Source of the DNA: Dehalococcoidia bacterium UBA2247
Lineage (GTDB): Bacteria; Chloroflexota; Dehalococcoidia; UBA2247
Reading direction: 5' to 3'
Assembly: GCA_002347295.1 (NCBI GenBank)
Contig: DDXZ01000001.1
Span: forward strand, 1-50,680
DNA: 50,680 nt
In this document: one piece after another, positions 1-25,890 of the stretch
Layout: each line of letters begins with the position of its first letter
Numbering within the stretch: position 1 is the first letter of the stretch
Position numbers and translations under genes: made by a program
Notes under the pieces: generated by a model
What the model was told of the DNA's origin: nothing
Databases searched by the model: none
The model's input: only the letters and a program-made list of their open reading frames with translations

Positions 1-108
1 ACTGTCCTGTTATTCAGACAGTAGTCTTTACCTTAATGCCCTGGATCCTCGATCAGGTCGAGGATGACAAACGTGGAGGTGGTGTGGATTAATACTCCCT
101 CTCCTACC

Positions 109-184
109 ATTCCGATGCAAATCGGAATCCAGTGGGGATGGTAGAGAAAATAAACTATGCCGTCATTCCCGCGCACGCGGGAAT
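109..184. repeat. Two short hairpin modules of the '...hairpin...ATCCAG' family
   Basis: attccgat-gcaa-atcggaat at 109-128, followed by atccag. Palindrome attcccgcg/cgcgggaat at 165-184, followed by atccag. The same modules recur at 47158-47198, 49261-49300 and 46980-47020. Confidence 0.6.
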
Positions 185-210
185 CCAGGGTGGCCCCCCC
201 CACCGATAGT

Positions 211-1522
211 GTCCCGAATGTGGTGGAAAAAGGAATCGGCATATACTACCCTATAGGAAAGCCAAATAAAGACAAGGGAGGATATACCGATGAAGAAAGG
301 ATACCACAAGGGACAGGAATTGACCATGTCAGAGCTGGGGTTATCGCTGGAAGAGCTTGCCGGCCAGCCACTGGAGCTGTTCGCCAGGGAGGGAGCAAAG
401 CTGCTGTTAATGGTAGGGCTGGAGGAAGAGGTCACCGCTGCTCTCATGCGCCGGCCGTATGAGCGCAGCCAAGGCCAAGGTCGTCGGTTACCGCAATGGT
501 CACCGTGACCGCCGGGTAAGCTGCGGGGCCGGTGTAATTGAGGTACCGGTGCCTCGGGTCTCAGATACCGAAGAGGCCTTTCGCTCCCAGCTGCTCGAAG
601 CCTGGCAGCGCCGCAGCAAGCTACTGGAAGAGACGATTCCTCTCCTCTACGTTGAGGGGTTATCGACGAGGGACTTCAAGCGGGCACTCAAGCCACTATG
701 GGGAAAGAGCGGATTCTCCCGCTCCAGCGTTTCACGGGCAAATAAAGCCCTCAAGGAAGCAGTGCTGGTAGCTCACGGCATCACTCGTGAAGGGGAACGG
801 GTGGTCCTGCACCTGAGCCTCGGTGGCAGAGAGAGCACCGAGTCGTGGAAGGGAGTGCTGAATGACTTGATAGAACGGGGCTTAGGACGACCTCAACTAC
901 TCATCACTGATGGTAACCCGGGACTCCTTAAGGCGATAAAGGATGTCTGGCCGGAAGCTCCGCGGCAGCGCTGTGCTGTCCACCGTATCCGGAATGTGTT
1001 GGCGAGGGTGCCCAAGAAGAAGCAGGATGAGGTCAGAAAAGCAGTAACCCGTATATTCTACGCTGCCTGTTTTGACGATGCCCGTGATGAAGCCAGGCAG
1101 TTTCTGTCCCGCTACAGCCGGGGAGTTCCCCACCGCTTGCGAGGTCCTGGCCCAACACCTTGAGGAATGCCTCACCTTCTATCGCTTCCCCGAGCGTCAC
1201 TGGAAACACATCCGCACCTCAAACGTCATCGAGCGGTCTTTCAAGGAGGTCAAGAGAAGGACCAGGGTAGTCGGTCGCTTCCCGAACGAGACATCGGCGC
1301 TGGTGATGGTTTTCAGTCTTCTGGAGGAAGAGAGGATGAAGTGGCAGAAGGTCGGGATGAGAGCCGAGGATATCGCCTGGATAGAGGAGGCATCAAAAGC
1401 ATTGGAACAAGAACCAATCAGACTGGAATTCCTGGAAGAAATGCTGGTTGCTTAAAGGGATTGACTGAGATGGCAGAAGGGAATAGGATATGGCTAGATC
1501 AAATTTCCACCAGTTATGGGAC
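211..1522 (+). mobile_element. Decayed IS256-family insertion sequence
   Basis: Imperfect terminal inverted repeats: gtcccgaatgtggtggaaa (211-229) versus the reverse complement of 1504-1522 (gtcccataactggtggaaa), 15 of 19 identical. They bracket the broken IS256-type transposase gene. I found no clean target-site duplication. Confidence 0.65.
290..1455 (+). pseudogene. IS256-family (mutator-type) transposase, inactivated
   Basis: The reading frame is split over three track ORFs (290-508, 459-1163, 1072-1455), so there are at least two frameshifts. The segment between ...ANKALKEA and VLVAHGITREGERV... looks deleted, including where IS256 transposases carry the first catalytic Asp region. C-terminal IS256 hallmarks are present (TSNVIERSFKEVKRRTRVVGRFPNE). 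Confidence 0.8.
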
Positions 1523-1626
1523 GCAGCCACCACAACGCAAAGGTTAAAACCTTTCTGGATTCTCTGCACTCTGAGGGTTCCCGAGCCAGAGCATGGCAAC
1601 ATTTTGCATAACATCAGTTATTCATC

Positions 1627-2850
1627 TTACAACGTTCTCTGCTTTTCATTAACGAATTTTTCTAATACTCTGTCTAAATAGTTTATCTGTTCATCGGTAA
1701 TATCCTGGTGAACACCGATATGAAGCCCATTATCCGCAATATAGTCCGATTCAGGGAATTGTCCTTCTCTATAACCGAGATATTTGAATCCGGCACACTG
1801 GGTAGGCATGGTCTGGAACATATTGCGGCTGTCAATGCCGTTCTTTTCCAGGTAATTGACCAGTGCATCACGAGTAAAACCGGTACCTTCTTTCAAGATT
1901 ATCGGAAAGGCATGCGGCCCGATTTTCTCATGGGCTTCTTCCTGAATAGTAAACATATATTTATCATATTTTTGGATAACCTGCATCATAGCATGCAGGT
2001 TATGTGTCCGTTTTGTCAGTATGGCAGCATACTGCTCCAGCGCTCCCAGTCCAATCGCCGCTTCCAGTTCATTCATTTTGCAGGAGAAGCCAAAGCGTTC
2101 GAAGACGAAGCGAATATCCGTATGCGCCGGATTATTGAAACGTTTGGCGCAGTAACCGGAACCGGTGCTGACGACACAGGTCTCGCATTTGCAGGCACGG
2201 CCATGGGAGCGTAAAGAACGTAATATCTCTGCTTTTTCAGTATCATTAGTAATCACAATGCCGCCTTCTCCGGTTGTGATGATATGAGCAACATAGAGGC
2301 TGAAGGCCGCTAAATCTCCCAACGTGCCTACTTTTTTGCCTTTGTATTCGGCACCATGCGCTTCCGCCGCGTCCTCAATCACTTTTAAATGATGTTTCCG
2401 GGCGATTTTGCTGATCTCATCCATTTTTGCCGGCTTACCCATGAGATGTACCGGCATAATCGCGATGGTTTTTTCAGTGATAGCACTCTCAATCAAATCA
2501 GGATTAATATTGAGAGTTTCCCGTTCGACATCAACAAACACCGGCGTGAAACCGGCATGCAAAACGGCATTTCCGGTAGCGACAAAACTGAGCGCGGGAA
2601 GAATCACTTCATCGCCGCGGTGCGCACCATAATCATAGAGAACAGCCAGAGCAAGGGCGTCGGCATCGGTCCCGGTGCTCACTGCCACTGCTTCTTTCAC
2701 CCCATAAAGAGCAGCGAATTTCTTCTCAAATTCGCGTACCAATTTACCGCTGGAGATTCTTTTACTGTCCAGTGCTTCGTTAATCAGCCGCTTCGCCGTA
2801 TCGGTGATACAAATTGTGCCAAACGGGATGCCCATTTTTTTCTCAGTCAT
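1627..2850 (-). CDS. DegT/DnrJ/EryC1-fold PLP/PMP enzyme, sugar 3-dehydratase type (RfbH/E1/ColD-like) rather than a plain aminotransferase
   Basis: 407-aa ORF with the fold signature ...DLAAFSLYVAHIITTGEGG.... His189 (codon 2284-2286) sits where aminotransferases of this fold carry the Schiff-base Lys. It is followed by SLRSHGRACKCETCVVSTGSGYCAKRF (CxCxxCx8C), resembling the RfbH/E1 region. Confidence 0.7.
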   Translation of the reverse strand: MTEKKMGIPFGTICITDTAKRLINEALDSKRISSGKLVREFEKKFAALYGVKEAVAVSTGTDADALALAVLYDYGAHRGDEVILPALSFVATGNAVLHAGFTPVFVDVERETLNINPDLIESAITEKTIAIMPVHLMGKPAKMDEISKIARKHHLKVIEDAAEAHGAEYKGKKVGTLGDLAAFSLYVAHIITTGEGGIVITNDTEKAEILRSLRSHGRACKCETCVVSTGSGYCAKRFNNPAHTDIRFVFERFGFSCKMNELEAAIGLGALEQYAAILTKRTHNLHAMMQVIQKYDKYMFTIQEEAHEKIGPHAFPIILKEGTGFTRDALVNYLEKNGIDSRNMFQTMPTQCAGFKYLGYREGQFPESDYIADNGLHIGVHQDITDEQINYLDRVLEKFVNEKQRTL

Positions 2851-3075
2851 GACTCATTCCTCTAACAATGATAAATTCTACTTAAATTCCAAATCCTAAA
2901 ATCCAAATTCCAGATAAATTCCTAAATCCTAAAATCCAATTTCCAAGCACCAAATAACAAATTACAATTAAGCCTCAAGCTTCAAGTTCCAAATCTCAAA
3001 CTACGTTTAAATTACAAACACCAAATTCCAGATAAATAGTTTGTGTTTTGTGATTTGAGATTTGGAATTTTCTCC
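2851..3075. repeat. Imperfect long palindrome with an A+C-rich arm and a G+T-rich arm, built from AAATCC/AAATTCC-type units (family copy 1)
   Basis: Internal duplications: aaatcctaaaatcca occurs twice and ccaaattccagataaat occurs twice. Left arm ttccaaatctcaaa...acaaacac (about 2985-3018) pairs with gtttgtgttttgtgatttgagatttggaa (about 3039-3068). A core at 2943-2968 matches the reverse complement of 26248-26270. Confidence 0.6.
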
Positions 3076-4653
3076 TCAGGCGTATTTTCGTTTAATCTTG
3101 CGCTGGAGCATTTCCGTGATGTGCTCGGCGACATGAGCGCCAAATTTTTCTGTAATCAACTGTAAATACACAGGGTTGCGGAAATATTCGTCAAAAGCCT
3201 GGTCGCGAAAACGTAAAACCTCAGCCGCAGAGAGGTGTTTGGTGGGGAGAGGCAAGGTCTCTTCAGCATATTGCGAATAGCCGTGCCATACTTCAGGTAA
3301 TTTAATGTCCTGTTGAATCGCCTCTTCATACAATGTGGAGCCGGGATAAGCCATGGCAGTATAGAAGTTGATATACTCAAAGTTATAAGCTTTTGCCATA
3401 TCAAGTGTCGCGCGCATCGTCTCCAGGTCATCATCAGGAAGACCGAAGATAAAATTACCGATAATAGAAATACCTGCCTCTTTCGTCATTTCAATTGCTT
3501 TTTGGGTGACATCTTCTTTCGTTTTCTTACGAACACCCTGGCGGACTATCTCACTGGCGGATTCAAAGCCATAAGCCAGCCAGTTAATTCCCGCCTGTTT
3601 CATTTTGCGCAGCATAGGAGCAGTGACGGTATCCACCCGGGCATAAGCCCAGATATTCAAATCATAACCACCGGCGATAATAAGGTCGCAGATACGGTTC
3701 ACCCGTTCTTCATCGAGAGCAAATAGTTCGTCGAGGAACTTGATATTTTGCACGCCGTATTTTTTCACCAGCAAATCAATCTCGGCGACTACCTTTTCCG
3801 GACTGCGGAGACGAATTCCGGGTTTACCGTTATAGAGTGCTCTCACATTGCAGTAGCTGCAATTGAAAGGACATCCCAGGCTGGTGTAAATAGCGGCATA
3901 GGGCTGCCTGCGGTCAAGATGAGCGAAACAGTGCCAGTTATGTGCCCGATACTTCTCCATAGGTAATAAATCCCACGCTGCAAAGGGCAATTCATCCGGG
4001 TTAACCAGAGGCGCCGGAGGGCTTGCGATAACCTTACCCTGACGAAGATACCAGAGGCCGGGAATGGTACAACCGCTGACATCTTTGCCTGCTTTTAATG
4101 CTTCCAGGAGAGGCAAAACAGTAGCAAACCCTTCGCCCTGGCAAACAAAATCCGCTTTTTCTTCTTTGAGAGTCCGTTCGGGAAGAGCTGATGTGTGCAG
4201 GCCGTTGAAAAACACCTTGATATGGGGAGCCTTTTCTTTAATTGAAGCGGCAACCTCGCCGGCGGCCGTCATTTTGGGAGTAGAGGAAGCGGAAGGATTG
4301 GAACCGAGGACAATAATTCCCGCCAGCAGAGGATTATACTCCGCAACCCGGGCGGCTGTTTGCTGCGGGTTGAGATTCTCCGCTTCGGCATCGATAATCT
4401 TTACCGAATACCCTTGTTCGCGGATATATGCTGCGAGCACGCCCGCCCAGAGCGGCGGTTCGATACCGGCGAGGGAAGCACCCAATCCGCCATAGACCTG
4501 TGTCCGTGCTCCAGGATTGACTAAAAGTAAATCAAGCTTTTGTTCCAACGGATATTCTTTAACCTTCCCAAGTATATTTTTTATTATTGTAACCAGCGCA
4601 GGATGCCGGTGGTGATGCTGGCAACATCCAGGCCAAGATGAGAATGTAAACAT
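3076..4653 (-). CDS. B12-binding-domain radical SAM enzyme (class B type)
   Basis: N-terminal Rossmann-like B12-binding region (LLLVNPGAR...) and the radical SAM cluster motif GCPFNCSYCNV. The annotated 5' end overlaps the upstream gene by 70 nt. The true start may be the internal TTG at 4548 (codon 36, giving ..EQKLDLLLVNP). Confidence 0.85.
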   Translation of the reverse strand: MFTFSSWPGCCQHHHRHPALVTIIKNILGKVKEYPLEQKLDLLLVNPGARTQVYGGLGASLAGIEPPLWAGVLAAYIREQGYSVKIIDAEAENLNPQQTAARVAEYNPLLAGIIVLGSNPSASSTPKMTAAGEVAASIKEKAPHIKVFFNGLHTSALPERTLKEEKADFVCQGEGFATVLPLLEALKAGKDVSGCTIPGLWYLRQGKVIASPPAPLVNPDELPFAAWDLLPMEKYRAHNWHCFAHLDRRQPYAAIYTSLGCPFNCSYCNVRALYNGKPGIRLRSPEKVVAEIDLLVKKYGVQNIKFLDELFALDEERVNRICDLIIAGGYDLNIWAYARVDTVTAPMLRKMKQAGINWLAYGFESASEIVRQGVRKKTKEDVTQKAIEMTKEAGISIIGNFIFGLPDDDLETMRATLDMAKAYNFEYINFYTAMAYPGSTLYEEAIQQDIKLPEVWHGYSQYAEETLPLPTKHLSAAEVLRFRDQAFDEYFRNPVYLQLITEKFGAHVAEHITEMLQRKIKRKYA

Positions 4654-5519
4654 TCTCTGCTGGCATACTGAAAAACGTACTGGTTCTCTGTTCCTAATCG
4701 TTTCAATCGTGATTGGCAGCCATTATCCGCCATAACTTCGGCAACAATACTGCCGATGCCGCCGGCAACCAGGTCTTCCGCCAGTGTCACCACCGGCTTA
4801 TTCTTTCCCATAACCTGGAGCAGTAAATTATCATTAACCGGACTGAGACGGTAAAGATCAACAATTGCAGCATCAATAGAGTGTTTGAGCAGTTCCTCTG
4901 TCACTTTAAATGCCTGGTGCACCATCATTCCGGAGGCGATAATAGTCATGTCTTTGCCTCGTTTTAGTAATGCCAGGCCGTCAGAAAAGTCATGCTTCTC
5001 TTCATAGCGTAAAGGAAACTTTTCCCGGTCCAGACGGATATATTTCGGCCCGGGGTCGCGGTAAGACATCCCGGCAAAGGCGGCGACCATAATATTATCC
5101 GAGGGATTATAGACAGTCATGCCGGGAAGAATGCGCATAACGGCAGCATCTTCAGTGGCGTGATGGGTGGGACCGGATGTAGAATAAGAATACCCTGCTC
5201 CTACGCCAACTGCAGTGACATGAAGTTTCATGCAGCATAAATCAAGTTTAATTTGCTCAAAGCAGCGTAAGGTGACAAAGGGAGCAATAGAGTAGATATA
5301 AACAATTTTACCGCTTAGAGCAAGACCGGCGGCAATAGTTACCATGTTCTGCTCCGCCACTCCGGCATTGATATACTGGCGGCTAAGGTCGGTCCGAAAT
5401 TTATCCAGACTGGGAGCGCCAAAATCACCGGTCAAAAGCATGACCCGGTCATCCTGACGTGCGATATCATACAGGGCATCAAAAAAGGCGTCTCTCATGC
5501 TGATATCAGCAATTTTCAT
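4584..5519 (-). CDS. Transketolase, C-terminal (pyrimidine-binding) subunit of a split transketolase
   Basis: 311-aa ORF with typical TktB-like sequence (GDFGAPSLDKF..., GVAEQNMV, GPTHHATEDAAVMR). It overlaps the N-terminal subunit gene by 14 nt. Confidence 0.85.
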   Translation of the reverse strand: MKIADISMRDAFFDALYDIARQDDRVMLLTGDFGAPSLDKFRTDLSRQYINAGVAEQNMVTIAAGLALSGKIVYIYSIAPFVTLRCFEQIKLDLCCMKLHVTAVGVGAGYSYSTSGPTHHATEDAAVMRILPGMTVYNPSDNIMVAAFAGMSYRDPGPKYIRLDREKFPLRYEEKHDFSDGLALLKRGKDMTIIASGMMVHQAFKVTEELLKHSIDAAIVDLYRLSPVNDNLLLQVMGKNKPVVTLAEDLVAGGIGSIVAEVMADNGCQSRLKRLGTENQYVFQYASRECLHSHLGLDVASITTGILRWLQ

Positions 5520-6369
5520 GGTCTGACCCCCTGTTTAATTCATTCTCTTTCTGCTGCAGCTCTTCTCGTGCCAGGGAAATGTATTTTCCGGAAACAGAAG
5601 TCGCATGCCAGAGAGGGATATTCTCCATAAAAGAGAGTCCTTTCCCTTTGGTGGTTTGCGCGATTAGAACCAGTGGTTTCTCTGACTTCCGGGAGCGGAA
5701 ATTTGCTAATGCCTGGAGAATATCAGGGAAAGAGTGCCCATCGATAACAGTGGCATCCCAGCTAAAGGATTGCCATTTTTCAGCGAAAGGGTTTAAACGG
5801 AGAAAATTCTCCGTAAAATCGGTAACTCCCAGAAAATTGCGGTCTACAATAGCCACCAAATTGTTCAGTTGGTGATGTCCGGCAAACATGGCTGCTTCCC
5901 AGACAGAACCTTCCTGACATTCTCCATCGCCCAGCAAAACAACCGTCATATATTGCTCTTTATTCATCTTCGCTGCCAGCGCCATGCCCGAACCCAATCC
6001 CAGTCCATGACCTAACGAACCGGCAACAACTTCTGTTCCCGGGATATTATTCTCGGCGATTGCTCCCAGTATACAATTTTCCTGACAGAATGTTTCCAGA
6101 TTATGCAGCGGGAAAAACCCCTGGTCTGCCAGTATGGGATACAGGCTGATAGCATGACCTTTACTCATAATAAAACGGTCCCGTTCCGGCCAGAGCGGAT
6201 TTTCGGGGTCAACTCTCAGGATACCGCCATAGTAGAGAGAAACGAGAATTTCTACACTGGAAAAGGCAGAAGCGAGGAATCCGGTATTAGCACGCACGCA
6301 CATTTCCAGTGTTTGCCGGCGCACCCAGTTCGCTTTTCTTTCCAGTTTTATTATTTCTTGCCCTGACAT
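5506..6369 (-). CDS. Transketolase, N-terminal (ThDP-binding) subunit of a split transketolase
   Basis: 287-aa ORF with the ThDP motif region GSLGHGLGLGSGMALA and LLGDGECQEGSVWEAAMFAGHHQLNNLVAIVDRN. Confidence 0.85.
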   Translation of the reverse strand: MSGQEIIKLERKANWVRRQTLEMCVRANTGFLASAFSSVEILVSLYYGGILRVDPENPLWPERDRFIMSKGHAISLYPILADQGFFPLHNLETFCQENCILGAIAENNIPGTEVVAGSLGHGLGLGSGMALAAKMNKEQYMTVVLLGDGECQEGSVWEAAMFAGHHQLNNLVAIVDRNFLGVTDFTENFLRLNPFAEKWQSFSWDATVIDGHSFPDILQALANFRSRKSEKPLVLIAQTTKGKGLSFMENIPLWHATSVSGKYISLAREELQQKENELNRGSDHENC

Positions 6370-6390
6370 ATATTTGTTCTCCTGAAACTC

Positions 6391-7383
6391 TTAAGATTTC
6401 TCGGGCTCGTAAAAAATTATCTGACTGCCCCGATTTTCAAATTGAAAGGGGACATATAGGAGCTTATTTAAACTCTTCTTGATTTGAGTTTGTACTTCAG
6501 GCGGCGCGAAGAACAAAATAAATCCCCCTCCGCCGGCACCTAAAAGTTTTCCTCCCAGGGCTCCGGCACTGCGAGCAGCAGTATAGATATCATCAATCTC
6601 TGTTGTGGATATCTTATTGGTCAGGCTTTTCTTAAGGCACCATGTTTCGTGGAGCAGCTTACCAAAATCCGTTAAGTCATTACCATTGAGGATGGAGATT
6701 GCCTGGAATACCATTTGATACATTTCATGCAATGTTTTCTTTTTATTAGGGGTCTCTTTTATCTGTTCCCCGGCAATTTCAGAAGCTCTGCGCGAGAAGC
6801 CGGTAAAAAACAACATGAGACTTTTCTGGAATAGCGCCAGTTTTTCACCATTGATAGTAATCGGCTTAACTTGAATGGATGGTTCTCCTTTTCCAATTTC
6901 AATTTGATTAAAGCCCCCGAATGCGGCCATAATCTGGTCCTGCGAACCCACATTTTCTTTAATCATCTTTTGTTCGATATGAATAGCATTGAGAGCCAGC
7001 TCTATTTTACCCGGGATAGTACCTTTCAAGGCGTAAAGGGCATTTAAAAGACCGACGGTAAAGGCCGAACTGGAGCCTAACCCGCTCATGGCAGGCAAGT
7101 CACCGTCGTGGTGTATCTCTACTCCCTGAGCGATATTCATGAAGCGCAGAGTTTCCCTTGCCGAGGGATGCTGTATTTCATCAATATTACGGACCTGCTC
7201 CATTCTGGAATAGATTATACGGTGCTTATGCTCAAAGAACGGTGGTAAATAGCGGCAGGTAATATAGCAATATTTATTGATGGTGGTGCCTAATACGGCA
7301 CCGCCGTTTTCCTCGTACCATACGGGATAATCGGTTCCACCACCGAAAAAAGAAATCCGAAACGGAGTCCGACTGATAATCAC
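6391..7383 (-). CDS. hddA: GHMP-family sugar kinase, D-glycero-D-manno-heptose 7-phosphate kinase-like
   Basis: N-terminus RTPFRISFFGGGTDYP...GGAVLGTTINKYCY and GHMP motif PAMSGLGSSSAF. It sits with gmhA and gmhB in the same operon direction. Confidence 0.65.
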   Translation of the reverse strand: MIISRTPFRISFFGGGTDYPVWYEENGGAVLGTTINKYCYITCRYLPPFFEHKHRIIYSRMEQVRNIDEIQHPSARETLRFMNIAQGVEIHHDGDLPAMSGLGSSSAFTVGLLNALYALKGTIPGKIELALNAIHIEQKMIKENVGSQDQIMAAFGGFNQIEIGKGEPSIQVKPITINGEKLALFQKSLMLFFTGFSRRASEIAGEQIKETPNKKKTLHEMYQMVFQAISILNGNDLTDFGKLLHETWCLKKSLTNKISTTEIDDIYTAARSAGALGGKLLGAGGGGFILFFAPPEVQTQIKKSLNKLLYVPFQFENRGSQIIFYEPEKS

Positions 7384-7426
7384 GCTATTGTCTCACTATT
7401 ATTTATCGAATGCTCTCCCCAACTAT

Positions 7427-8359
7427 TTAGATATTACTGAACTGATTTCTTTTGATGACCTGATATCCTTTTATCAGTTCCGTGATACCCTGCTGTAATG
7501 ATACATCCGGTTGATAACCGGTAGCTTCAATCTTGGCATTACTCACGATGTAATTTCTTTTATCAGGGTCTTCACCGACCGAAGCTTCCACAAAGTAGAA
7601 AGCGGGTATCTGTTTTTTAATCTCTTCACATAATTCCCATTTACTTAAGTTAGCTGTGGAAAGACCAACATTATACGCTTCATTTTTCATTTTAGTGAAA
7701 TTATCCAGGCAATGGATAAATGCTTTGGCGACATCCCGGACATGAACATAATTTCTCTTGAAATGAGCTTCAAAAAGAATAATAAAACGATCGTTAACGG
7801 CACGATAGGTAAAATCATTTACCAGCAGGTCCAGACGCATGCGGGGGCTGACTCCAAAGACTGTTGCTAATCTTAACGTAATGGCATTGCCGGCATGCAG
7901 GACAGCTTGTTCTGCTTCTACTTTCAGACTGCCGTAGAGAGAGACAGGATTTAAGGGAGTATCTTCGGTACAGTAAATTCCTTCCTGTCCCACTCCGTAA
8001 CCACTGTTTGTTGTCGGATATATTATTATCTGGTTACTATGGCGTAATTCCAGAAGCATTTTAATAGCATCAAGATTAGTAGTGCGTGCTGCAATCGGGT
8101 CTTGAGCACAGAGGGGTGCTCCCGTTAAGCAGGCCAGAGGGATGATTGCATCCACATCCTTTAAATATTTTGAAATGACGGATTTATCACGTGTATCACC
8201 GCGAACTATGTCCAGATTTTTGTTATTACAGCAGTCGAGTAATGACGACTGGTTATACATGAAGTTATCCAGTGCCACGACCTTATGGCCTTGATTCAAT
8301 AGAGCTGGCACTAATATAGAACCAATAAAACCAGCAGCACCCGTTACCATTATTTTCAT
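7427..8359 (-). CDS. NAD-dependent sugar-nucleotide epimerase/dehydratase (extended SDR)
   Basis: Canonical MKIMVTGAAGFIGS Rossmann motif and SDR-like core. 310 aa. Confidence 0.85.
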   Translation of the reverse strand: MKIMVTGAAGFIGSILVPALLNQGHKVVALDNFMYNQSSLLDCCNNKNLDIVRGDTRDKSVISKYLKDVDAIIPLACLTGAPLCAQDPIAARTTNLDAIKMLLELRHSNQIIIYPTTNSGYGVGQEGIYCTEDTPLNPVSLYGSLKVEAEQAVLHAGNAITLRLATVFGVSPRMRLDLLVNDFTYRAVNDRFIILFEAHFKRNYVHVRDVAKAFIHCLDNFTKMKNEAYNVGLSTANLSKWELCEEIKKQIPAFYFVEASVGEDPDKRNYIVSNAKIEATGYQPDVSLQQGITELIKGYQVIKRNQFSNI

Positions 8360-8388
8360 GACAGAGTCTCCATTTCTTTACTCACGTA

Positions 8389-9327
8389 TTATTGATGCAT
8401 CTCTTCACTTATGCGTTGATTCCGGTACCATTGGTACGTTTTACGAATTCCTTCTTCCAGATTATTTTTTGGTTTCCAGCCCAGTTGGCTTAATCTATCA
8501 GTATCTAATAATTTCCGTATTGTACCATCCGGTTTGGTTTTATCAAAGACCACATCTCCGCTAAATCCTACAATATCTTTTACCAGTAAAGCTAAATCCT
8601 TGATCATCATGTCTTCACCGTAACCGATATTGATAATTTCAGAACTATTATAATTGTCCATCAGAAAAACACAGGCATCCGCCAGGTCGTCGATATACAT
8701 GAATCCGCGACGGGGCGTACCGGTACCCCAGAGAGTAATACTATTTTTCTCCTTCGTTTTAGCATCATGAAACTTATAAATTAAAGACGCCAGCACATGT
8801 GCTGTTTCCGGATTAAAATCATCATGCGGCCCATAGAGATTGTCCGGAATTACGGAAACGAAATTAGTATGATATTGTCTATTATATGATTGACACATAC
8901 GTATCCCGGCAATTTTAGCGATAGCATAAGATTCACTGGTAGGTTCCAGTAGCCCGGTCAAAAGATATTCTTCTTTCATCGGCTGCGGACACACCCGGGG
9001 ATAAATACAGGAACTTGCCAGGAAAATCAGCTTCTTAACCTGCGACTGCCAGGCAAAATGAATCACATTATTTTGAATCTGGAGATTACTATAAATAAAT
9101 TCCGCCGGATATGTCTGATTAGCGATAATGCCGCCTACCCTGCCCGCAGCCAGAAAAACATATTCCGGTTTCTCAATTAAGAAAAAATTTCTAACAGCTA
9201 ACTGGTCAGTAAGGTCTATCTCTGCCGTAATAATATTGGTGTATCCTCTGTCCTTAAGACAGCAGATGAGAGACAATCCCTCCATTCTTGATTTGTCAGC
9301 AATAAATATCCTGGAATCTTTGTTCAT
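8389..9327 (-). CDS. GDP-L-fucose synthase-like (Fcl/WcaG family) SDR epimerase/reductase
   Basis: Collinear with E. coli Fcl as I remember it (VGGIIANQTYPAEFIY, SSCIYP, SYAIAKIAG, LYGPHDDF, KPDGT.RKLLD). The N-terminal glycine loop reads IADKSRMEG instead of GxxGxxG. Confidence 0.75.
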   Translation of the reverse strand: MNKDSRIFIADKSRMEGLSLICCLKDRGYTNIITAEIDLTDQLAVRNFFLIEKPEYVFLAAGRVGGIIANQTYPAEFIYSNLQIQNNVIHFAWQSQVKKLIFLASSCIYPRVCPQPMKEEYLLTGLLEPTSESYAIAKIAGIRMCQSYNRQYHTNFVSVIPDNLYGPHDDFNPETAHVLASLIYKFHDAKTKEKNSITLWGTGTPRRGFMYIDDLADACVFLMDNYNSSEIINIGYGEDMMIKDLALLVKDIVGFSGDVVFDKTKPDGTIRKLLDTDRLSQLGWKPKNNLEEGIRKTYQWYRNQRISEEMHQ

Positions 9328-9347
9328 ATCACCATTCTAATGATAAA

Positions 9348-9971
9348 TCAGGATTGGTTTGTCTGCGCTATAATCCATTCTACTGCCTCATATAAATTTG
9401 TCGCAATATGGTCGGACGCCGGGGGAATTTTTACCTGTTGACCCGGCAACTTGTTATCAAGGAGCAAAATTGTTTTGCATCCTGCCCCACGGCCGGCTTC
9501 AATATCGCTCATTTTATCACCGATAAGAAAAGATTTATTTAAATTGATATTGAGTTCTTCGGCGGACTGACGGAGCATTCCCGGATTGGGTTTTCGACAA
9601 TTACATTCTCTTCTGTATTCGGGGATAATTCCTTCCGGATGATGGGGACAATAGTATATCTTATCGATAAAAGCATCTTCCTGAGACAGGAGCTGCCGGA
9701 TATAATCATTAATGTCACGAACAACTTCTTCTGTAAAATAACCTCTGGCAACACCGGCCTGATTGGTAACTACTACCACTTTGAACCCATTTTTGTTCAG
9801 TAATTTAATGGCAGCGGCTACTTGTGGTAAAAATCTGACTTTGTTTCGTTCATGAAGATGGTCAGTGTCCTCAACAATTGTCCCGTCTCGATCCAGAAAT
9901 ACTGCCTTTACCACTTCAAATCCTTTTAGTTTCTTTATCATTACTGAATAGTTGTGCTTCGACAAGTTCAC
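9348..9971 (-). CDS. gmhB: D,D-heptose 1,7-bisphosphate phosphatase (HAD family)
   Basis: FLDRDGTI..., VVVTNQAGVARGYF, YYCPHHPEG...C.CRKPNPGML and GDKMSDIEAG. The start is probably the internal Met at MIKKLKG (9944). Confidence 0.8.
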   Translation of the reverse strand: MNLSKHNYSVMIKKLKGFEVVKAVFLDRDGTIVEDTDHLHERNKVRFLPQVAAAIKLLNKNGFKVVVVTNQAGVARGYFTEEVVRDINDYIRQLLSQEDAFIDKIYYCPHHPEGIIPEYRRECNCRKPNPGMLRQSAEELNINLNKSFLIGDKMSDIEAGRGAGCKTILLLDNKLPGQQVKIPPASDHIATNLYEAVEWIIAQTNQS

Positions 9972-10536
9972 ATACGATATGACCGATAGTGATATGTGCT
10001 TCCTGGATACGAGCCGTATTGTGGGAAGGTACGGCTAAGACCAGGTCTGCTATCTCTGCCATCTTTTCCCCATTAGCTCCGGTGAGAACGATAGTCCTGG
10101 CTCCTTTACTTCGGGCAGCTTCCAGTGCTTCCAGTACGTTGCGCGAATTACCACTGGTGCTGATACCGATTACGATGTCTTTTTCCGTCACCAGCGCTTC
10201 CACCTGACGGCTAAACACCATATTGTAATCATAATCGTTGGCTACCGCTGTTAATATGGAGGTGTTGGTAGTGAGAGCAATGGCGGGAAGGGCTTGTCTC
10301 TCTAATTGGAATCGTCCTACCAGTTCCCCGGCAATATGTTGTGCATCAGCCGCACTACCACCATTACCGCACAGAACTACCTTACCATTATTTTTGAACA
10401 CATCAATAACAAGATTCACCATGAGTTCTATATCACCAGCCATAGTCTGTGCTATGGTTGCCTTTAAGCGGGCATTTTCTCTGAGCCTGCTTATAATTTC
10501 ACTTTTAACAGTGTTTTTATGGTACATATTATTCAT
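9916..10536 (-). CDS. gmhA: Phosphoheptose isomerase (SIS domain)
   Basis: GNGGSAADAQHIAGELVGRF, ISTSGNSRNV and VLTG motifs. The track ORF extends to 10635, but Met34 (MNNMYHK, ATG at 10536) is the more plausible start. Confidence 0.8.
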   Translation of the reverse strand: MNNMYHKNTVKSEIISRLRENARLKATIAQTMAGDIELMVNLVIDVFKNNGKVVLCGNGGSAADAQHIAGELVGRFQLERQALPAIALTTNTSILTAVANDYDYNMVFSRQVEALVTEKDIVIGISTSGNSRNVLEALEAARSKGARTIVLTGANGEKMAEIADLVLAVPSHNTARIQEAHITIGHIVCELVEAQLFSNDKETKRI

Positions 10537-10644
10537 TGAGCACGGCCCCGGATTACTTTCAATCAATAAAACATTATAGTGCACAGTAATACTAAGGTAA
10601 AGGCTTTTATTGTTCCGCGACCCGTATTGCGTCAAATTAAACTG

Positions 10645-11470
10645 TTACCGTAGTCCTTGATGTTGCATATTAGTATTACCGGCATTTACCGGATGACGTG
10701 CCAGTTGCCACAGTTGTTCCAGGAGGTCATTAATCTGTTTCAGAAGAAGTACCGGATTGAGCCTCTGGTAAATATCCGCCAGCTCTTTTCTTTTTGCTTC
10801 TGTGAGCACACCGAATGCCAGTAACAGGCTGATAGGGTGTCTGTGCTTTATCATAGACCTTATGCACCCGGGCTCCATTCCTTGTCTTACAAAGAAGCTT
10901 CATTGTGGGCTGGAAGAAGTTAATATAGAGTCTGACCAGCAAGTAGAGCTTTTCCAAGCAGTGATATGCTGCATGGGAGGTATAACCGGTCATAGCCCAC
11001 CAGACGGCGCAGACGTTACCATTCTTCTGTTCGATATGGCAGCTATCATTCTTCTTATAGGAGCGGGAATGGGTAAAAGTGATTCTCTCCTTTTGACAAT
11101 AAGCATAAAGCTGATGGTTAATAAACTCGCTACCCTTATCCGAATCCAGTCCCAGTAAAGGAAAAGGAAGCCGTTGACGCATCTTGTGGATAGCACCACC
11201 AACACGCTGCTATCCTTTTTCCCATACCGGGAGACATTCTGTCCAGCCACTGGCAATGTCTACTCCACAGAGAGTATTCAGGTAAAAACCTTCCGTACGC
11301 TCACCGCAGTGAGCAACTAAATCTGCTTCGAGAAAACCTGGCTTATTCTCCTGCCAGTCAGCAAAGGTCCTCACCGGGATGGCACCCTTGAGCCAGTTCC
11401 CGGCTGCACCGGCTGACTTCCCCGTAAGATATTTTTCGGCCGATTAGCCGGTGTGACATCATGGCCAAGG
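10645..11470 (-). pseudogene. DDE (rve/integrase-core) transposase, inactivated
   Basis: My translation of the minus strand gives ...KGAIPVRTFADWQENKPGFLEADLVAHCGERTEGFYLNTLCGVDIATGWTECLPVWEKG*QRVGGAIHKMRQRLPFPLLGLDSDKGSEF.... There is an in-frame TAG. A frameshift near 10860 separates the body (10730-11182) from the C-terminal piece (10645-10878). The N-terminal part is degraded. Confidence 0.7.
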
Positions 11471-11643
11471 TGCGGGTACTGATCCCACTTAAGAACATCA
11501 TTATATGCCCTGTTACCTACTATCGTAAGTCTAATAAGGAAGTAGAAGAAAGCAAGGAGCGATAATAAACCGAGCGTGCTAAGCCCTAACAGAGTGTTGA
11601 AAACCAGAGGCAACGGCTTAAAGCCCTGTTTTTCAACACCCTG

Positions 11644-13140
11644 CTAGGATTCTGTGGGCGCGCTTCCGCTTCCTCCAATATTTTGATCTGCCCGTGAGTT
11701 ATCGGCTGGTGGTTCCGCAGGTTGTACCGTTATAACAATAGGGTTGTCCGGATCTCCCTGTCCCGGAAAAGCAACAACTACCGTTCCTTCTGGTGCTGCG
11801 GTAACGGTAGTATTACTCCCGGTATTATCTGTAGTATTGCTTTGTGACGGTGGCCCGGGGTCGGTCTGCCCTGATTCTGCCGTGGAACCATCTGACACCT
11901 GTTGTCCCGGTGTAATGGAAGGTTCCGCAGCATTATTATCCAGGGAGATTTGAGGTGATATACTCTGTCCCTGGGGTTCCGCTGTATTAATAAAATTATT
12001 ACCGGCAGTGTCCCCGGCGTTTCCCTTACTCTGAGTTGTTGGTGTCTGTGGTGTTTCTGATGTTGTATTCTGGTTGGTATCCGCTGGCTTATCAGAATTG
12101 TCCGTAGTAGGGGTTTCTGGTCCAGCTATAGCGGCTCCGGTTATTTCTTTTCCAAACTGCTGTAATCTCTCATATTCCTGTTGAGTATTCCCCGCCAGAG
12201 CACCATTACTATTAGCGGCTTCCGTATTGGCGCGATTTAACCTGTTTCCCATTACTTCGCGATTTAGTTGCTCCGCCCTGCCGGGATTTATCTCAGCTAA
12301 GTTTTGCATCGCTCTGACATGACTATTAAGTGCAATCTCTTTAGTCTGAGTTAGTAGTTCTCGGGCAAACTCAGGCATATGATCTTCCAGAGAATCCAGC
12401 CTGTTGAAATGGTCCAGTATATTGAGCGTAATGGCTTCCATGGCCATTTCTCTTTTGCTTGATTTCTCGGCTTTAGTAATTGCCAGATTGAGATTTTTCT
12501 CATATCCGGAAATAGCGAGAGCGATTTTTTCTTCTTTGGATACAATATCAGGAGCCATTTCTTCAAGATAGGTCCGGGTGAAGTTCAGGGTAAATCCGGA
12601 AGCGACAACCTCTACCGGCTCGGTCGGCAACCCCAGTATTGCTTCTATTTCATCAAGGCGTGTACTGGCAAATTTTAGCTCTAAATCTACTTCCGCTGCA
12701 TCATCAATCGTAATAACACGCTGTAATTGCTCTGTATTCAGCTTAACAGGATAAAGATTGTCTCCGGGCAGACTGGATTGAGCCGCATAAGCGACACCGG
12801 TTCCGGAGATAACGATAACCAGCAATACCGCTACTACGGTTGTGACGGCACGGGACCATCCTGCAAGCCAGTAAGGTTTTGCCAGCGGCCATAATCCTTT
12901 ACGCTCCCTTTTTCGTACCTGATCGGCATATATCTCTTCCATCAGCTTAACTCTGGTACTGATTTTAAATTGAGCGGAAGGGCCGGTGGTTAGCGGCTCG
13001 TTAATATTAATCGCCATACGCAGCAGCGGCTCTAATTCCTGACGGAGATCAGGATGTTGATTAAGACATTCAGCAAGCTCAATCTTACCTGCCTTGATAT
13101 CATCTATACATTGAATGAGGATTTCTTCTATATTATCCAC
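11644..13140 (-). CDS. Anti-sigma factor-like membrane protein with a long Pro/Thr/Ser/Asn-rich C-terminal tail
   Basis: Its GTG start shares one nucleotide with the sigma-factor stop (TAGTG), suggesting translational coupling. It has an N-terminal helical anti-sigma-like segment, one TM segment (AVTTVVAVLLVIVISGTGVAYA) and an extracytoplasmic domain. Confidence 0.7.
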   Translation of the reverse strand: MDNIEEILIQCIDDIKAGKIELAECLNQHPDLRQELEPLLRMAININEPLTTGPSAQFKISTRVKLMEEIYADQVRKRERKGLWPLAKPYWLAGWSRAVTTVVAVLLVIVISGTGVAYAAQSSLPGDNLYPVKLNTEQLQRVITIDDAAEVDLELKFASTRLDEIEAILGLPTEPVEVVASGFTLNFTRTYLEEMAPDIVSKEEKIALAISGYEKNLNLAITKAEKSSKREMAMEAITLNILDHFNRLDSLEDHMPEFARELLTQTKEIALNSHVRAMQNLAEINPGRAEQLNREVMGNRLNRANTEAANSNGALAGNTQQEYERLQQFGKEITGAAIAGPETPTTDNSDKPADTNQNTTSETPQTPTTQSKGNAGDTAGNNFINTAEPQGQSISPQISLDNNAAEPSITPGQQVSDGSTAESGQTDPGPPSQSNTTDNTGSNTTVTAAPEGTVVVAFPGQGDPDNPIVITVQPAEPPADNSRADQNIGGSGSAPTES

Positions 13141-25433: not shown

Positions 25434-25506
25434 GGGGATATAGCTCAGTTGGGAGAGCGCTGCATTCGCATTGCAGAGGTCGGGGGTTCGACTCCCCCTA
25501 TCTCCA
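25434..25506 (+). tRNA. tRNA-Ala (anticodon CGC)
   Basis: Cloverleaf folded by hand. Acceptor GGGGATA/TATCTCC contains the G3:U70 alanine identity pair. Anticodon loop TTCGCAT, T-loop GGTTCGACT. CCA not encoded. Confidence 0.92.
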
Positions 25507-25541
25507 GTTAAAAATTGAACAGGAGGGTGATTAGGATTCAT

Positions 25542-25871: not shown

Positions 25872-25890
25872 ATATAGGCAAGTGTAACGG

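What the first reader, a model, noticed from the sequence alone, without database searches (positions are those of the whole stretch)
1627..10635. IS-bracketed heptose-nucleotide tailoring cluster with an unusual enzyme combination (3-dehydratase type, split transketolase, B12-radical SAM)
Nine co-oriented, tightly packed or overlapping genes make up this cluster:
- Three encode the front end of the nucleotide-activated glycero-manno-heptose pathway: GmhA isomerase, an HddA-like GHMP kinase and GmhB phosphatase.
- Two are SDR epimerase/reductases; one is Fcl-like, as in the GDP-heptose modification pathways of Campylobacter capsule loci.
- Two encode a split ThDP-dependent transketolase.
- One is a class-B (B12-binding) radical SAM enzyme.
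- One is a DegT-fold enzyme with the hallmark of 3-deoxygenating dehydratases.

In the established yersiniose pathway, an E1-type 3-dehydratase is followed by a ThDP enzyme (YerE) that adds a two-carbon branch to a keto-sugar. An analogous logic applied to a heptose, plus a radical SAM C-methylation or rearrangement, would give a 3-deoxy, branched and/or C-methylated heptose. I am not aware of a described pathway for that.

No nucleotidyltransferase (HddC-like) or glycosyltransferase is visible. Dead transposase genes sit at both ends, so the cluster may be truncated.
Basis: partly seen in the sequence, partly recalled or inferred. Interest (0 to 1): 0.7.

Follow-up and report, generated by a model that had tools for sequence, protein, structure and literature searches.

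The report
Truncated heptose-sugar tailoring operon, widespread, uncharacterised
Nine intact genes in a Dehalococcoidia genome are a cut-down copy of an operon found in hundreds of bacterial and archaeal species; it builds a GDP-activated seven-carbon sugar, removes its 3-hydroxyl and then alters its carbon skeleton with a radical-SAM enzyme and a thiamine enzyme, by chemistry nobody has yet described.

Summary
**Observation: confirmed.** All nine minus-strand genes are real, intact and under purifying selection. Degraded IS256-family and ISNCY-family transposase genes flank them. No nucleotidyltransferase or glycosyltransferase lies anywhere in the window.

**New findings**
- The second SDR is a 58%-identical homologue of Cj1427, the GDP-heptose C4-dehydrogenase.
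- The DegT protein has His in place of the catalytic Lys, plus a conserved four-Cys loop.
- The Fcl-like enzyme keeps every epimerase and reductase catalytic residue.
- The radical SAM gene marks a module present in at least 597 species across many phyla.
- In 44 well-flanked loci it sits with the kinase (39), a His-type DegT (39), the Cj1427 homologue (34), the Fcl-like gene (30), an HddC-like guanylyltransferase (26) and a two-subunit ThDP enzyme (41).
- The ThDP enzyme is either transketolase-type or pyruvate-dehydrogenase-E1-type, never both. One relative fuses the radical SAM enzyme to E1-alpha.

**Reading.** This is a GDP-heptose pathway that runs colitose-like (C4 oxidation, C3 deoxygenation, epimerisation/reduction), plus an unknown carbon-skeleton step by the coupled radical SAM and ThDP enzymes.

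The yersiniose-like C4 branch is possible but disfavoured, because the invariant Fcl catalytic residues imply that the 4-keto group survives. 3-Deoxyheptose chemistry itself is already published. I found no paper on the whole module.

The parts
9916..10536 (-). gmhA, sedoheptulose-7-phosphate isomerase (206 aa; the mechanical ORF runs up to 10635)
   Evidence: TIGR00441 scores 222 bits against a cut-off of 209. SIS_2 domain. Start taken from the 99%-identical contig L087.
9348..9914 (-). gmhB, heptose 1,7-bisphosphate 7-phosphatase (188 aa, GTG start)
   Evidence: TIGR00213 scores 163.9 bits against a cut-off of 149.6; PRK08942 scores 175 against 178. The N-terminus carries DRDGT.
8389..9327 (-). 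Fcl-like bifunctional 3,5-epimerase/4-reductase
   Evidence: E 5e-96 to E. coli GDP-fucose synthase 1BWS. Ser107, Cys109, Tyr136, Lys140 and His179 equivalents are all present. Cys, His and Lys are invariant in 43 of 43 module copies.
7427..8359 (-). Cj1427-type GDP-heptose C4-dehydrogenase homologue
   Evidence: Gapless alignment over 308 residues to PDB 6VO6/6VO8, E 6e-121. The equation 6VO6 = Cj1427 rests on my own knowledge. 50-78% identical copies occur in 53 related loci.
6391..7383 (-). HddA-like GHMP sugar kinase
   Evidence: Best NCBIfam match is HddA (E 1.5e-41, 143 bits, far below the 600-bit cut-off). The closest solved structures are all heptose kinases (3K85, 4USK, 4N3O). In relatives it most often sits next to the HddC-like transferase (26 adjacencies).
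5506..6369 (-). ThDP enzyme, transketolase N-terminal (diphosphate-binding) subunit
   Evidence: Transketolase_N. E 6e-64 to the split transketolase of Carboxydothermus hydrogenoformans, 6YAK. The GDGE...N motif is conserved in the module's copies.
4584..5519 (-). ThDP enzyme, transketolase pyrimidine-binding/C-terminal subunit (overlaps the N subunit by 14 nt)
   Evidence: Transket_pyr plus Transketolase_C. E 7e-44 to 6YAJ. Arg9, His119 and Arg162 are invariant in 27 of 27 copies.
3076..4548 (-). B12-binding-domain radical SAM enzyme (490 aa, TTG start), signature gene of the module
   Evidence: B12-binding plus Radical_SAM domains. CxxxCxxC is invariant. Best families are HpnJ and BchE. AlphaFold model pLDDT 91.8; best fold match is AprD4. 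Relatives occur in at least 597 species.
2851..3075 (.). Repeat-rich AT-rich spacer between the radical SAM gene and DegT
   Evidence: Direct repeats of 17-29 nt, and an inverted repeat 2984-3000 / 3054-3070 that is 94% complementary. The related contig L087 ends inside it.
1627..2850 (-). His-type DegT-fold enzyme, predicted PMP-dependent sugar 3-dehydratase with a four-Cys loop
   Evidence: E 4e-58 to E1 (3BCX). His189 replaces the catalytic Lys. C220, C222, C225 and C234 are conserved in 25 of 37 copies of this subtype.
157..1547 (+). Degraded IS256-family (Mutator-type) transposase gene, split over several frames
   Evidence: ORF 459-1163 matches only part of Transposase_mut (E 2e-48). The neighbouring pieces lie in other frames.
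10645..11613 (-). Degraded ISNCY-family transposase gene (fragments)
   Evidence: ORF 10730-11182 is about 50% identical over 118 aa to genes annotated as ISNCY family transposase (E 1e-28). It is broken into four short ORFs. Homology with the 99% relative L087 stops at 10607.

Best explanation
The region is a truncated but still functional copy of a widespread, conserved and so far uncharacterised operon that makes a modified GDP-heptose for a surface glycan.

**Steps resting on close homology**
1. GmhA isomerises sedoheptulose-7-phosphate.
2. The HddA-like kinase and GmhB give heptose-1-phosphate.
3. [quoted passage not shown] It is present in relatives and missing here.
4. The Cj1427 homologue oxidises C4.
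5. The His-type DegT enzyme removes the 3-hydroxyl.
6. The Fcl homologue epimerises and reduces the 4-keto sugar. Steps 4-6 are the heptose counterpart of the Gmd/ColD/ColC colitose route.

**Inferred step**
- The radical SAM enzyme and the two-subunit ThDP enzyme act as a pair to change the carbon skeleton.
- Most likely they work on the exocyclic C6-C7 side chain. The radical SAM enzyme would create or modify a carbonyl there, by AprD4-like dehydration or by methylation.
- The ThDP enzyme would then add a two-carbon unit, from a ketose phosphate in transketolase-type operons such as this one, or from pyruvate in E1-type operons. The product would be a 3-deoxy higher-carbon sugar.

**State in this genome.** IS activity has removed the guanylyltransferase, glycosyltransferase and export genes that flank the module in related Dehalococcoidales.
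For: **Homology of the individual enzymes**
- The second SDR aligns without gaps over 308 residues to PDB 6VO6, 58% identical, E 6e-121.
- The Fcl-like enzyme keeps the catalytic residues of E. coli GMER. Cys, His and Lys are invariant in 43 of 43 module copies.
- His replaces Lys in all 60 module DegT proteins.

**Synteny in 44 loci with at least 7 kb on each side**

| Neighbour | Loci |
|---|---|
| GHMP kinase | 39 |
| DegT | 39 |
| Cj1427-like | 34 |
| Fcl-like | 30 |
| HddC-like transferase | 26 |
| ThDP pair | 41 (E1 type 25, Tkt type 16, never both) |

- The transferase cluster's best NCBIfam match is HddC.
- One relative is a radical SAM/E1-alpha fusion protein sitting in the same context.
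- At least 597 species carry the radical SAM gene.

**Context in relatives**
- Related Dehalococcoidales and other loci continue into Wzm/Wzt or Wzx exporters and glycosyltransferases.
- Solidesulfovibrio magneticus plasmid pDMC1 carries the full set plus an L-2-hydroxyglutarate oxidase gene. That fits Cj1427's use of alpha-ketoglutarate as oxidant (PMC10680097).

**Function in this genome.** pN/pS is 0.12 against a 99%-identical relative.

**Radical SAM fold.** The best structural match is the diol dehydratase AprD4, TM 0.73/0.79.

**ThDP subunit.** The transketolase C-terminal subunit's candidate substrate-binding residues (Arg9, His119, Arg162) are invariant in 27 of 27 copies.
Against: - No biochemical data exist for the radical SAM or ThDP step. 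Its substrate, position and order are inferred.
- Three related loci carry a Gmd-like 4,6-dehydratase instead of the Cj1427 homologue. That would remove the C6 hydroxyl needed for a 6,7-diol dehydration.
- The known sugar-nucleotide precedents for ThDP enzymes (YerE, AviB1/B2, Pau11/12) all act at C4 of a 4-keto sugar.
- The kinase scores far below the curated HddA cut-off.
- The Azospirillum plasmids keep only the Fcl-like gene (in A. lipoferum 4B), the radical SAM gene, the kinase and a NUDIX gene.
- Without a guanylyltransferase in view, production in this organism is unproven.
Confidence: 0.5

Rival explanations
1. The 3-deoxy-4-keto-heptose is the acceptor for a yersiniose-type ThDP carboligation at C4. 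The radical SAM enzyme C-methylates the sugar or the new branch. The product is a 3-deoxy-4-C-branched heptose.
For: - Every established ThDP step on sugar nucleotides adds an acyl group to C4 of a 4-keto sugar, and for the YerE group the acceptor is 3-deoxygenated (PMC9306805).
- Two-subunit E1-like enzymes (AviB1/B2, Pau11/12) are proposed to do the same from pyruvate (PMC4753412).
- A His-type 3-dehydratase always accompanies the ThDP enzyme in the module.
- Half of the related operons use a PDH-E1-type pair.
- The radical SAM enzyme has the class-B architecture shared with C-methylases such as TsrM, TokK and CysS.
Against: - The Fcl-like enzyme keeps the Cys/His epimerase pair and the reductase Lys in 43 of 43 copies, and sits inside the compact operons. 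It needs a 4-keto sugar with acidic neighbouring protons, and C4 branching would destroy that.
- The ThDP enzyme here is transketolase-type. The natural acceptors of that type are aldehydes, not ketones (established knowledge).
- It is not a YerE-family protein.
Confidence: 0.2
2. The module makes a carbocyclic higher sugar of the caryose type (4,8-cyclo-3,9-dideoxy-nonose). A two-carbon unit from the ThDP enzyme ends up bonded to both C4 and C7 of a 3-deoxy-4-keto-heptose. The radical SAM enzyme forms the ring-closing C-C bond.
For: - The caryose skeleton equals a 3-deoxyheptose plus a C2 unit bridging C4 and C7, which matches the enzyme set (inference).
- A 2022 review states that the origin of caryose is unknown. 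It lists radical SAM enzymes (HpnJ, calditol synthase) as carbocycle formers (PMC9092360).
- The radical SAM enzyme's two best family matches are HpnJ and BchE, both implicated in forming five-membered carbocycles.
- The radical SAM/E1-alpha fusion fits consecutive steps.
Against: - This is purely structural reasoning.
- It gives no role to the invariant Fcl-like epimerase/reductase.
- I could not examine the genome of Trinickia (Burkholderia) caryophylli.
- The matches to HpnJ and BchE are far below their curated cut-offs (173 against 578 bits).
- Transketolase-type operons would give a 9-hydroxy sugar rather than a 9-deoxy one.
Confidence: 0.1
3. The transketolase pair is ordinary pentose-phosphate transketolase placed here to supply sedoheptulose-7-phosphate, and the radical SAM enzyme is an unrelated neighbour.
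For: - The pair is 38-45% identical to a biochemically active split transketolase (6YAJ/6YAK).
- It keeps the ThDP motifs and candidate substrate-binding residues.
Against: - In the same syntenic slot 25 of 44 loci carry a PDH-E1-type pair instead, which cannot make sedoheptulose-7-phosphate. The two types never co-occur.
- The ThDP pair sits with the radical SAM gene in 41 of 44 loci.
- One protein fuses the radical SAM enzyme to E1-alpha.
- Most loci with a ThDP pair lack gmhA.
Confidence: 0.03
4. In this particular genome the cluster is an inert remnant. IS insertions have cut it off from activation, transfer and export genes, so no product is made.
For: - Degraded transposase genes lie at both ends.
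- No HddC-like gene or glycosyltransferase lies in 50 kb.
- Related Dehalococcoidales loci have these genes immediately adjacent.
Against: - All nine genes are full-length.
- Against a 99%-identical relative there are 49 synonymous and 21 non-synonymous differences, pN/pS 0.12.
- The missing genes may lie elsewhere in the genome.
Confidence: 0.12

Closest known systems
Campylobacter jejuni capsular GDP-heptose modification pathways (Cj1423-Cj1430; HS:5 3,6-dideoxyheptose route)
   Same: - Same precursor logic: GmhA, HddA, GmhB, HddC.
- A Cj1427-type C4-dehydrogenase, 58% identical.
- A PLP/PMP-dependent C3-dehydratase.
- An Fcl-family C4-reductase.
- GDP-3-deoxy-4-keto-heptose has been made in vitro from exactly these activities (PMC10680097, PMC10440746).
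   Different: - C. jejuni uses separate cupin epimerases and reductases. Here one Fcl-like enzyme keeps both catalytic sets.
- C. jejuni has no ThDP enzyme and no B12-domain radical SAM enzyme in these pathways.
- The DegT here carries a four-Cys loop.
GDP-L-colitose pathway (Gmd, ColD, ColC)
   Same: The order 4-keto formation, then His-type 3-dehydratase, then Fcl-homologous epimerase/reductase, on a GDP-linked manno-configured sugar.
   Different: - The substrate is a heptose.
- The 4-keto group is made by a Cj1427-type dehydrogenase that keeps the C6 hydroxyl, not by a 4,6-dehydratase.
- Two further enzymes (radical SAM and ThDP) are integral.
CDP-yersiniose pathway (E1/E3 3-deoxygenation, then YerE ThDP carboligation, then YerF) and AviB1/AviB2, Pau11/Pau12
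   Same: - A His-type dehydratase with Cys ligands like E1.
- A ThDP enzyme in the same operon.
- E1-alpha/beta-type pairs in half of the related operons, as in avilamycin and paulomycin clusters.
   Different: - The ThDP enzyme is not of the YerE family.
- No E3 reductase gene.
- GDP-heptose rather than CDP- or TDP-hexose.
- An invariant Fcl-type 4-reductase argues against C4 branching.
- An obligatory radical SAM partner.
Class-B (B12-binding domain) radical SAM enzymes acting on sugars: AprD4, HpnJ, GenK, OxsB
   Same: - N-terminal Rossmann-like B12-binding domain plus radical SAM core with CxxxCxxC.
- Best fold match is AprD4; best sequence families are HpnJ and BchE.
   Different: - At most about 20% identical to any solved member.
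- Far below every curated family cut-off.
- Forms its own large family: 4905 representatives at E below 1e-30.
- Tied to heptose genes and a ThDP enzyme.
Split transketolase of Carboxydothermus hydrogenoformans (PDB 6YAJ/6YAK)
   Same: - Two-gene architecture.
- 38-45% identity.
- ThDP-binding motif and candidate substrate-binding Arg/His residues conserved.
   Different: - Embedded in a sugar-nucleotide operon.
- Interchangeable with PDH-E1-type pairs across genomes, so not a pentose-phosphate-pathway enzyme.

Membership tests
[quoted passage not shown] | Sedoheptulose-7-phosphate isomerase GmhA | tested here: met
   TIGR00441 scores 222 bits against a cut-off of 209.
[quoted passage not shown] | Heptose-7-phosphate 1-kinase HddA | tested here: inconclusive
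   The best family is HddA but it scores 143 bits against a cut-off of 600. The nearest solved structures are all heptose kinases. In relatives the kinase sits next to the HddC-like gene.
[quoted passage not shown] | Heptose 1,7-bisphosphate phosphatase GmhB | tested here: met
   TIGR00213 scores 163.9 against 149.6; PRK08942 scores 175.1 against 178. Anomer specificity was not resolved.
[quoted passage not shown] | Heptose-1-phosphate guanylyltransferase HddC | tested here: not met
   No homologue anywhere in the window; the best tblastn E-value is 0.002 and spurious. An HddC-like gene is present in 26 of 44 related loci.
C. jejuni-type GDP-heptose C4 modification | Cj1427-type NAD-dependent C4-dehydrogenase | tested here: met
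   58% identity, gapless over 308 residues, to PDB 6VO6, E 6e-121. Activity itself is not testable here. The equation 6VO6 = Cj1427 rests on my own knowledge.
C. jejuni-type GDP-heptose C4 modification | Separate cupin (RmlC-like) C3/C5 epimerase | tested here: not met
   None among the nine genes. The Fcl-like enzyme retains its own Cys/His epimerase pair instead.
Sugar 3-dehydratases (E1/RfbH, ColD) | His in place of the PLP-binding Lys | tested here: met
   His189 aligns with the Lys of perosamine synthase and the His of E1. His is present in 60 of 60 module copies.
Sugar 3-dehydratases (E1/RfbH, ColD) | E1-type [2Fe-2S] ligands (C-X57-C-X1-C-X7-C; motif recalled from the literature) | tested here: inconclusive
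   The CxC pair aligns with E1's. The distal first Cys is Ala here. Instead there is a conserved CxCxxC-x8-C loop, present in 25 of 37 copies of this subtype. Metal binding is not testable here.
Sugar 3-dehydratases (E1/RfbH, ColD) | Dedicated E3 reductase partner | tested here: not met
   No such gene in the cluster or among the conserved neighbours.
Yersiniose-type C4 branching | YerE-family (acetolactate-synthase-like, FAD-binding) ThDP enzyme | tested here: not met
   The ThDP enzyme is a split transketolase (Transketolase_N, Transket_pyr, Transketolase_C). An acetolactate synthase model gives only a marginal hit, E 7.6e-4.
Transketolase | ThDP/Mg motif GDG...N and candidate substrate-binding Arg/His residues | tested here: met
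   Both are conserved in the window protein and in all 27 module copies. A housekeeping role is contradicted by synteny.
Class-B radical SAM enzymes | N-terminal B12-binding domain plus CxxxCxxC radical SAM core | tested here: met
   Pfam B12-binding scores 65.9 bits against 32.1; Radical_SAM scores 69.4 against 29.5. The three Cys are invariant. The fold matches AprD4, TsrM, OxsB and TokK.
Class-B radical SAM enzymes | Cobalamin use and methyl transfer | not testable with these tools
   The nearest fold neighbour AprD4 is a dehydratase, and the other neighbours are methylases. Sequence alone does not decide between them.
Composite transposon | Two copies of the same IS, or matching terminal repeats, bracketing the cargo | tested here: not met
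   The left remnant is IS256-family and the right remnant ISNCY-family. BLASTN finds no repeat shared by the two flanks.

The most novel reading that the evidence does not exclude
The conserved radical SAM plus ThDP pair converts a GDP-3-deoxy-4-keto-heptose into a nine-carbon sugar. This could be a chain-extended nonose or a caryose-like carbocyclic sugar, whose biosynthesis is currently unknown. Either way it would be a new kind of radical C-C or C-O chemistry on a nucleotide sugar, and the product would decorate cell surfaces in hundreds of mostly uncultured species across more than 15 phyla.
Probability: 0.3. Interest if true: 0.85.

Novelty: new variant of a known kind. Interest (0 to 1): 0.62.

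Why it matters
- **Established part.** Heptose-nucleotide tailoring has been worked out in detail only in Campylobacter.
- **What this adds.** This module shows that a related pathway is spread across Chloroflexota, Omnitrophota, Planctomycetota, Nitrospirota, Cyanobacteria, Desulfobacterota, Firmicutes and even archaea. It carries two extra, obligatory enzymes whose joint reaction on a sugar nucleotide has no precedent.
- **Likely yield.** Solving it would probably give a new sugar, a new class-B radical SAM reaction and a functional label for a family with thousands of members.
- **Tractable systems.** A cultured carrier exists (Solidesulfovibrio magneticus RS-1, plasmid pDMC1), and the Raushel laboratory has published methods for the substrate. 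The question can therefore be tested directly.
- **Possible link.** It may also bear on the unknown origin of caryose.

Tried and rejected
- **Housekeeping transketolase.** Rejected. The E1-type pair replaces the transketolase pair in the same slot and the two are mutually exclusive. A radical SAM/E1-alpha fusion also exists.
- **Composite transposon.** Rejected. The flanking IS remnants belong to different families and share no repeats.
- **Pseudogene remnant.** Weakened by pN/pS of 0.12 against contig L087.
- **Hidden or degraded nucleotidyltransferase in the window.** A tblastn search with 39 relatives found nothing.
- **Literature.** I searched for heptose with radical SAM, transketolase, thiamine, cobalamin and carbocycle terms. 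Nothing described the module. Searches on caryose found only a statement that its origin is unknown.
- **Confirming the PDB code.** Two Cj1427 papers I wanted for checking the PDB code are not held.
- **YerF and Pau7 as precedents for an Fcl-like branch reductase.** Pau7 is an aldo-keto reductase and YerF's family was not stated, so there is no support.
- **ThDP enzyme as electron donor.** I considered that the ThDP enzyme might feed electrons to the radical SAM and Fe-S enzymes. No evidence bears on this, so I left it as a remote idea.
- **Third protein-database search.** I ran no further search on looking for Trinickia caryophylli, because a top-120 list was unlikely to reach that organism.

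Full report
**1.

The window carries nine co-oriented minus-strand ORFs between 1627 and 10635. Pfam and NCBIfam assign them, in order of transcription, as follows:
- GmhA, above the curated cut-off.
- GmhB, above the subfamily cut-off.
- An Fcl-like SDR.
- A second SDR.
- A GHMP kinase whose best family is HddA.
- The two halves of a split transketolase.
- A B12-binding-domain radical SAM enzyme.
- A DegT-fold enzyme whose best family is RfbH.

Homologues and a 99%-identical metagenomic contig (L087) place three true starts downstream of the mechanical ORF starts. With those starts the genes are 1-43 bp apart or overlap by 14 nt. The exception is a 225-bp repeat-rich spacer before the DegT gene.

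The rest of the window is housekeeping: MetRS, TatD, RsmI, CorA, FolE, homoserine dehydrogenase, SHMT, UvrC, Acs and Mfd. It holds no glycosyltransferase and no sugar nucleotidyltransferase. MetRS relatives place the organism in Dehalococcoidia.

**2. The flanks**

- The left flank is an IS256-family (Transposase_mut) gene broken across frames.
- The right flank holds fragments about 50% identical to ISNCY-family transposases.
- The two flanks share no repeats, so this is not a composite transposon.
- Homology with the 99%-identical contig stops at 10607, exactly at the right-hand junction.

**3. The genes are alive**

Over 7.6 kb the window and L087 differ at 71 positions with no indels. Of these, 49 are synonymous and 21 non-synonymous, giving pN/pS of 0.12.

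**4. What the individual enzymes are**

*Second SDR.* It aligns without a gap over 308 residues to PDB 6VO6/6VO8, 58% identical, E 6e-121.
- Cj1427's use with alpha-ketoglutarate is described in PMC10680097.

*Fcl-like enzyme.* It matches E. coli GDP-fucose synthase at E 5e-96 and keeps Ser107, Cys109, Tyr136, Lys140 and His179.

*Kinase.* Its nearest solved relatives are all heptose kinases.

*DegT enzyme.*
- It has His where aminotransferases carry the Schiff-base Lys, as in E1 and ColD.
- It also has a CxCxxC-x8-C loop that overlaps E1's Fe-S Cys pair.

*Transketolase pair.*
- It is closest to the active split transketolase of Carboxydothermus hydrogenoformans.
- It keeps the ThDP motif and the candidate substrate-binding Arg and His residues.

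*Radical SAM enzyme.*
- It has the canonical CxxxCxxC.
- Its best curated families are HpnJ and BchE, far below their cut-offs.
- A confident AlphaFold model (pLDDT 91.8) is closest to the 1,2-diol dehydratase AprD4, followed by the methylases TsrM, MgmA, CysS and TokK and the ring-contracting OxsB.

**5. The decisive evidence is comparative**

*Size and spread of the family.*
- The radical SAM protein belongs to a large family, with 4905 cluster representatives at E below 1e-30.
- A scan of one genome per species found relatives in at least 597 species.
- These span Chloroflexota, Omnitrophota, Planctomycetota, Nitrospirota, Desulfobacterota, Cyanobacteria, Elusimicrobiota, Verrucomicrobiota, Firmicutes (Pelotomaculum), Alphaproteobacteria and archaea (Methanoperedenaceae).

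*Conserved neighbours.* I clustered all ORFs of 83 loci without regard to annotation. In the 44 loci with at least 7 kb on each side, the neighbours were:

| Neighbour | Loci of 44 |
|---|---|
| GHMP kinase | 39 |
| DegT enzyme | 39 |
| Cj1427 homologue | 34 |
| Fcl-like enzyme | 30 |
| ~241-aa nucleotidyltransferase (best family HddC) | 26 |
| Two-subunit ThDP enzyme | 41 |

*The ThDP pair.*
- It is PDH-E1-type in 25 loci and transketolase-type in 16, never both.
- tblastn recovers a pair in two of the three apparent exceptions.
- One family member (P0123) is a fusion of the radical SAM enzyme with an E1-alpha domain, in the same gene context.

*The DegT enzyme.*
- All 60 module DegT proteins, in four sub-lineages, have the His substitution.
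- Only distant second copies in those loci have Lys.

*gmhA and gmhB.*
- They are occasional members (8 and 3 of 44 loci).
- Loci that carry gmhA include Dehalococcoidales, other Chloroflexota and Pelotomaculum.
- My own inference is that such lineages lack an LPS heptose pathway to borrow from.

**6. Context in relatives**

- In related Dehalococcoidales and other loci the module runs straight into Wzm/Wzt or Wzx exporters, glycosyltransferases and methyltransferases.
- A cultured carrier exists. Solidesulfovibrio magneticus RS-1 plasmid pDMC1 encodes, in order: two GT2 enzymes, the radical SAM enzyme, a NUDIX protein, the kinase, E1-alpha, E1-beta, the Fcl-like enzyme, DegT, the Cj1427 homologue, the nucleotidyltransferase, a GT-C glycosyltransferase and, close by, an L-2-hydroxyglutarate oxidase.
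- That last gene would recycle the by-product expected from a Cj1427-type enzyme that uses alpha-ketoglutarate as oxidant.
- Measured against these relatives, the window copy has lost the guanylyltransferase at its upstream end and the export and transfer genes at its downstream end. Those are exactly the places where the IS remnants now sit.

**7. Mechanism**

*Firmly inferred from homology.*
- C4 is then oxidised, and C3 is deoxygenated by the His-type PMP enzyme.
- The resulting GDP-3-deoxy-4-keto-heptose has been made in vitro with the Campylobacter enzymes (PMC10680097).

*The Fcl-like enzyme.*
- Its Cys/His epimerase pair and its reductase Lys are invariant in 43 of 43 module copies.
- It must therefore act on a 4-keto sugar.
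- The three enzymes together form the heptose counterpart of the Gmd/ColD/ColC colitose route.

*The radical SAM and ThDP enzymes.*
- They are left without an assigned site, and they are tied to each other by synteny and by the fusion.
- C4 appears to be reserved for the Fcl-like enzyme.
- Transketolase, and likewise DXS, adds C2 units to aldehydes.
- The nearest fold to the radical SAM enzyme is a sugar diol dehydratase.
- I therefore favour remodelling of the exocyclic C6-C7 side chain followed by a two-carbon addition. This step is inference, not demonstration.

**8. Rivals**

It also explains why a 3-dehydratase is always present. It leaves the invariant Fcl-type catalytic residues unexplained.
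- *A caryose-like carbocycle.* The skeleton is a 3-deoxyheptose with a C2 unit bridging C4 and C7. It fits the enzyme inventory and the HpnJ/BchE resemblance. A 2022 review says the origin of caryose is unknown (PMC9092360). I could not test it.
- *A housekeeping transketolase.* Excluded by the E1/Tkt alternation.
- *An inert remnant.* Made unlikely by purifying selection.

**9. Novelty**

- Every enzyme belongs to a known superfamily.
- The conserved combination with a radical SAM/ThDP pair is not described in any paper I could find.
- All database names for these proteins are generic.
- I rate it a new variant of a known kind: an uncharacterised, widely distributed branch of nucleotide-heptose tailoring that probably includes a new radical SAM reaction.

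Noticed in passing
window 2851-3075: The 225-bp spacer between the radical SAM and DegT genes consists of AT-rich direct repeats (17-29 nt units such as AAATTCCAAATCCTAAA) and a 17-nt inverted repeat that is 94% complementary (2984-3000 / 3054-3070). The related short-read contig L087 breaks inside it.
   Followed up: partly
window 40005-41579 (with 41622-42320 and 42428-42964): A second, unrelated B12-binding radical SAM gene with a DUF4070 domain. It is followed by a HAD hydrolase gene and an IS200-like Y1 transposase gene.
   Followed up: no
window 106-132, 46876-46918, 47159-47185: A short palindromic element (ccattccgatgcaaatcggaatccag) recurs near the left IS remnant and twice around 47 kb, once inverted. 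It looks like a REP-type intergenic repeat.
   Followed up: partly
window 25434-26384: A cluster of seven tRNA genes (Ala, Arg, Trp, Leu, Gly, Cys, Leu) on the plus strand. It is not adjacent to the sugar island.
   Followed up: no
window 11644-13706: An ECF sigma factor gene and a downstream DUF5667-containing protein (probable anti-sigma factor) sit directly beside the right-hand IS remnant.
   Followed up: no
P0137, P0142, P0144, P0153 (radical SAM family members): Several homologues of the radical SAM enzyme are interrupted by inteins (Intein_splicing, PT-HINT and LAGLIDADG domains) inside the radical SAM core.
   Followed up: partly
L089 (Solidesulfovibrio magneticus RS-1 plasmid pDMC1) 25447 onwards: An L-2-hydroxyglutarate oxidase gene (lhgO) lies a few genes downstream of the module. 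This fits recycling of the L-2-hydroxyglutarate expected from a Cj1427-type dehydrogenase.
   Followed up: partly
L088 and L090 (Azospirillum lipoferum 4B and A. ramasamyi plasmids): A reduced variant keeps only the radical SAM gene, the kinase and a NUDIX hydrolase (with an Fcl-like gene detected only in A. lipoferum 4B), next to an approximately 1127-aa hypothetical protein. No ThDP enzyme, DegT or Cj1427 homologue lies within 12 kb. The core pairing of kinase and radical SAM enzyme may therefore have a role beyond the full pathway.
   Followed up: partly
L006, L012, L013, L024, L028, L073 and others: Many related loci carry one to three additional, distant (21-29% identical) B12-domain radical SAM paralogues and SAM methyltransferases next to the module. 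This suggests further tailoring of the same sugar.
   Followed up: no
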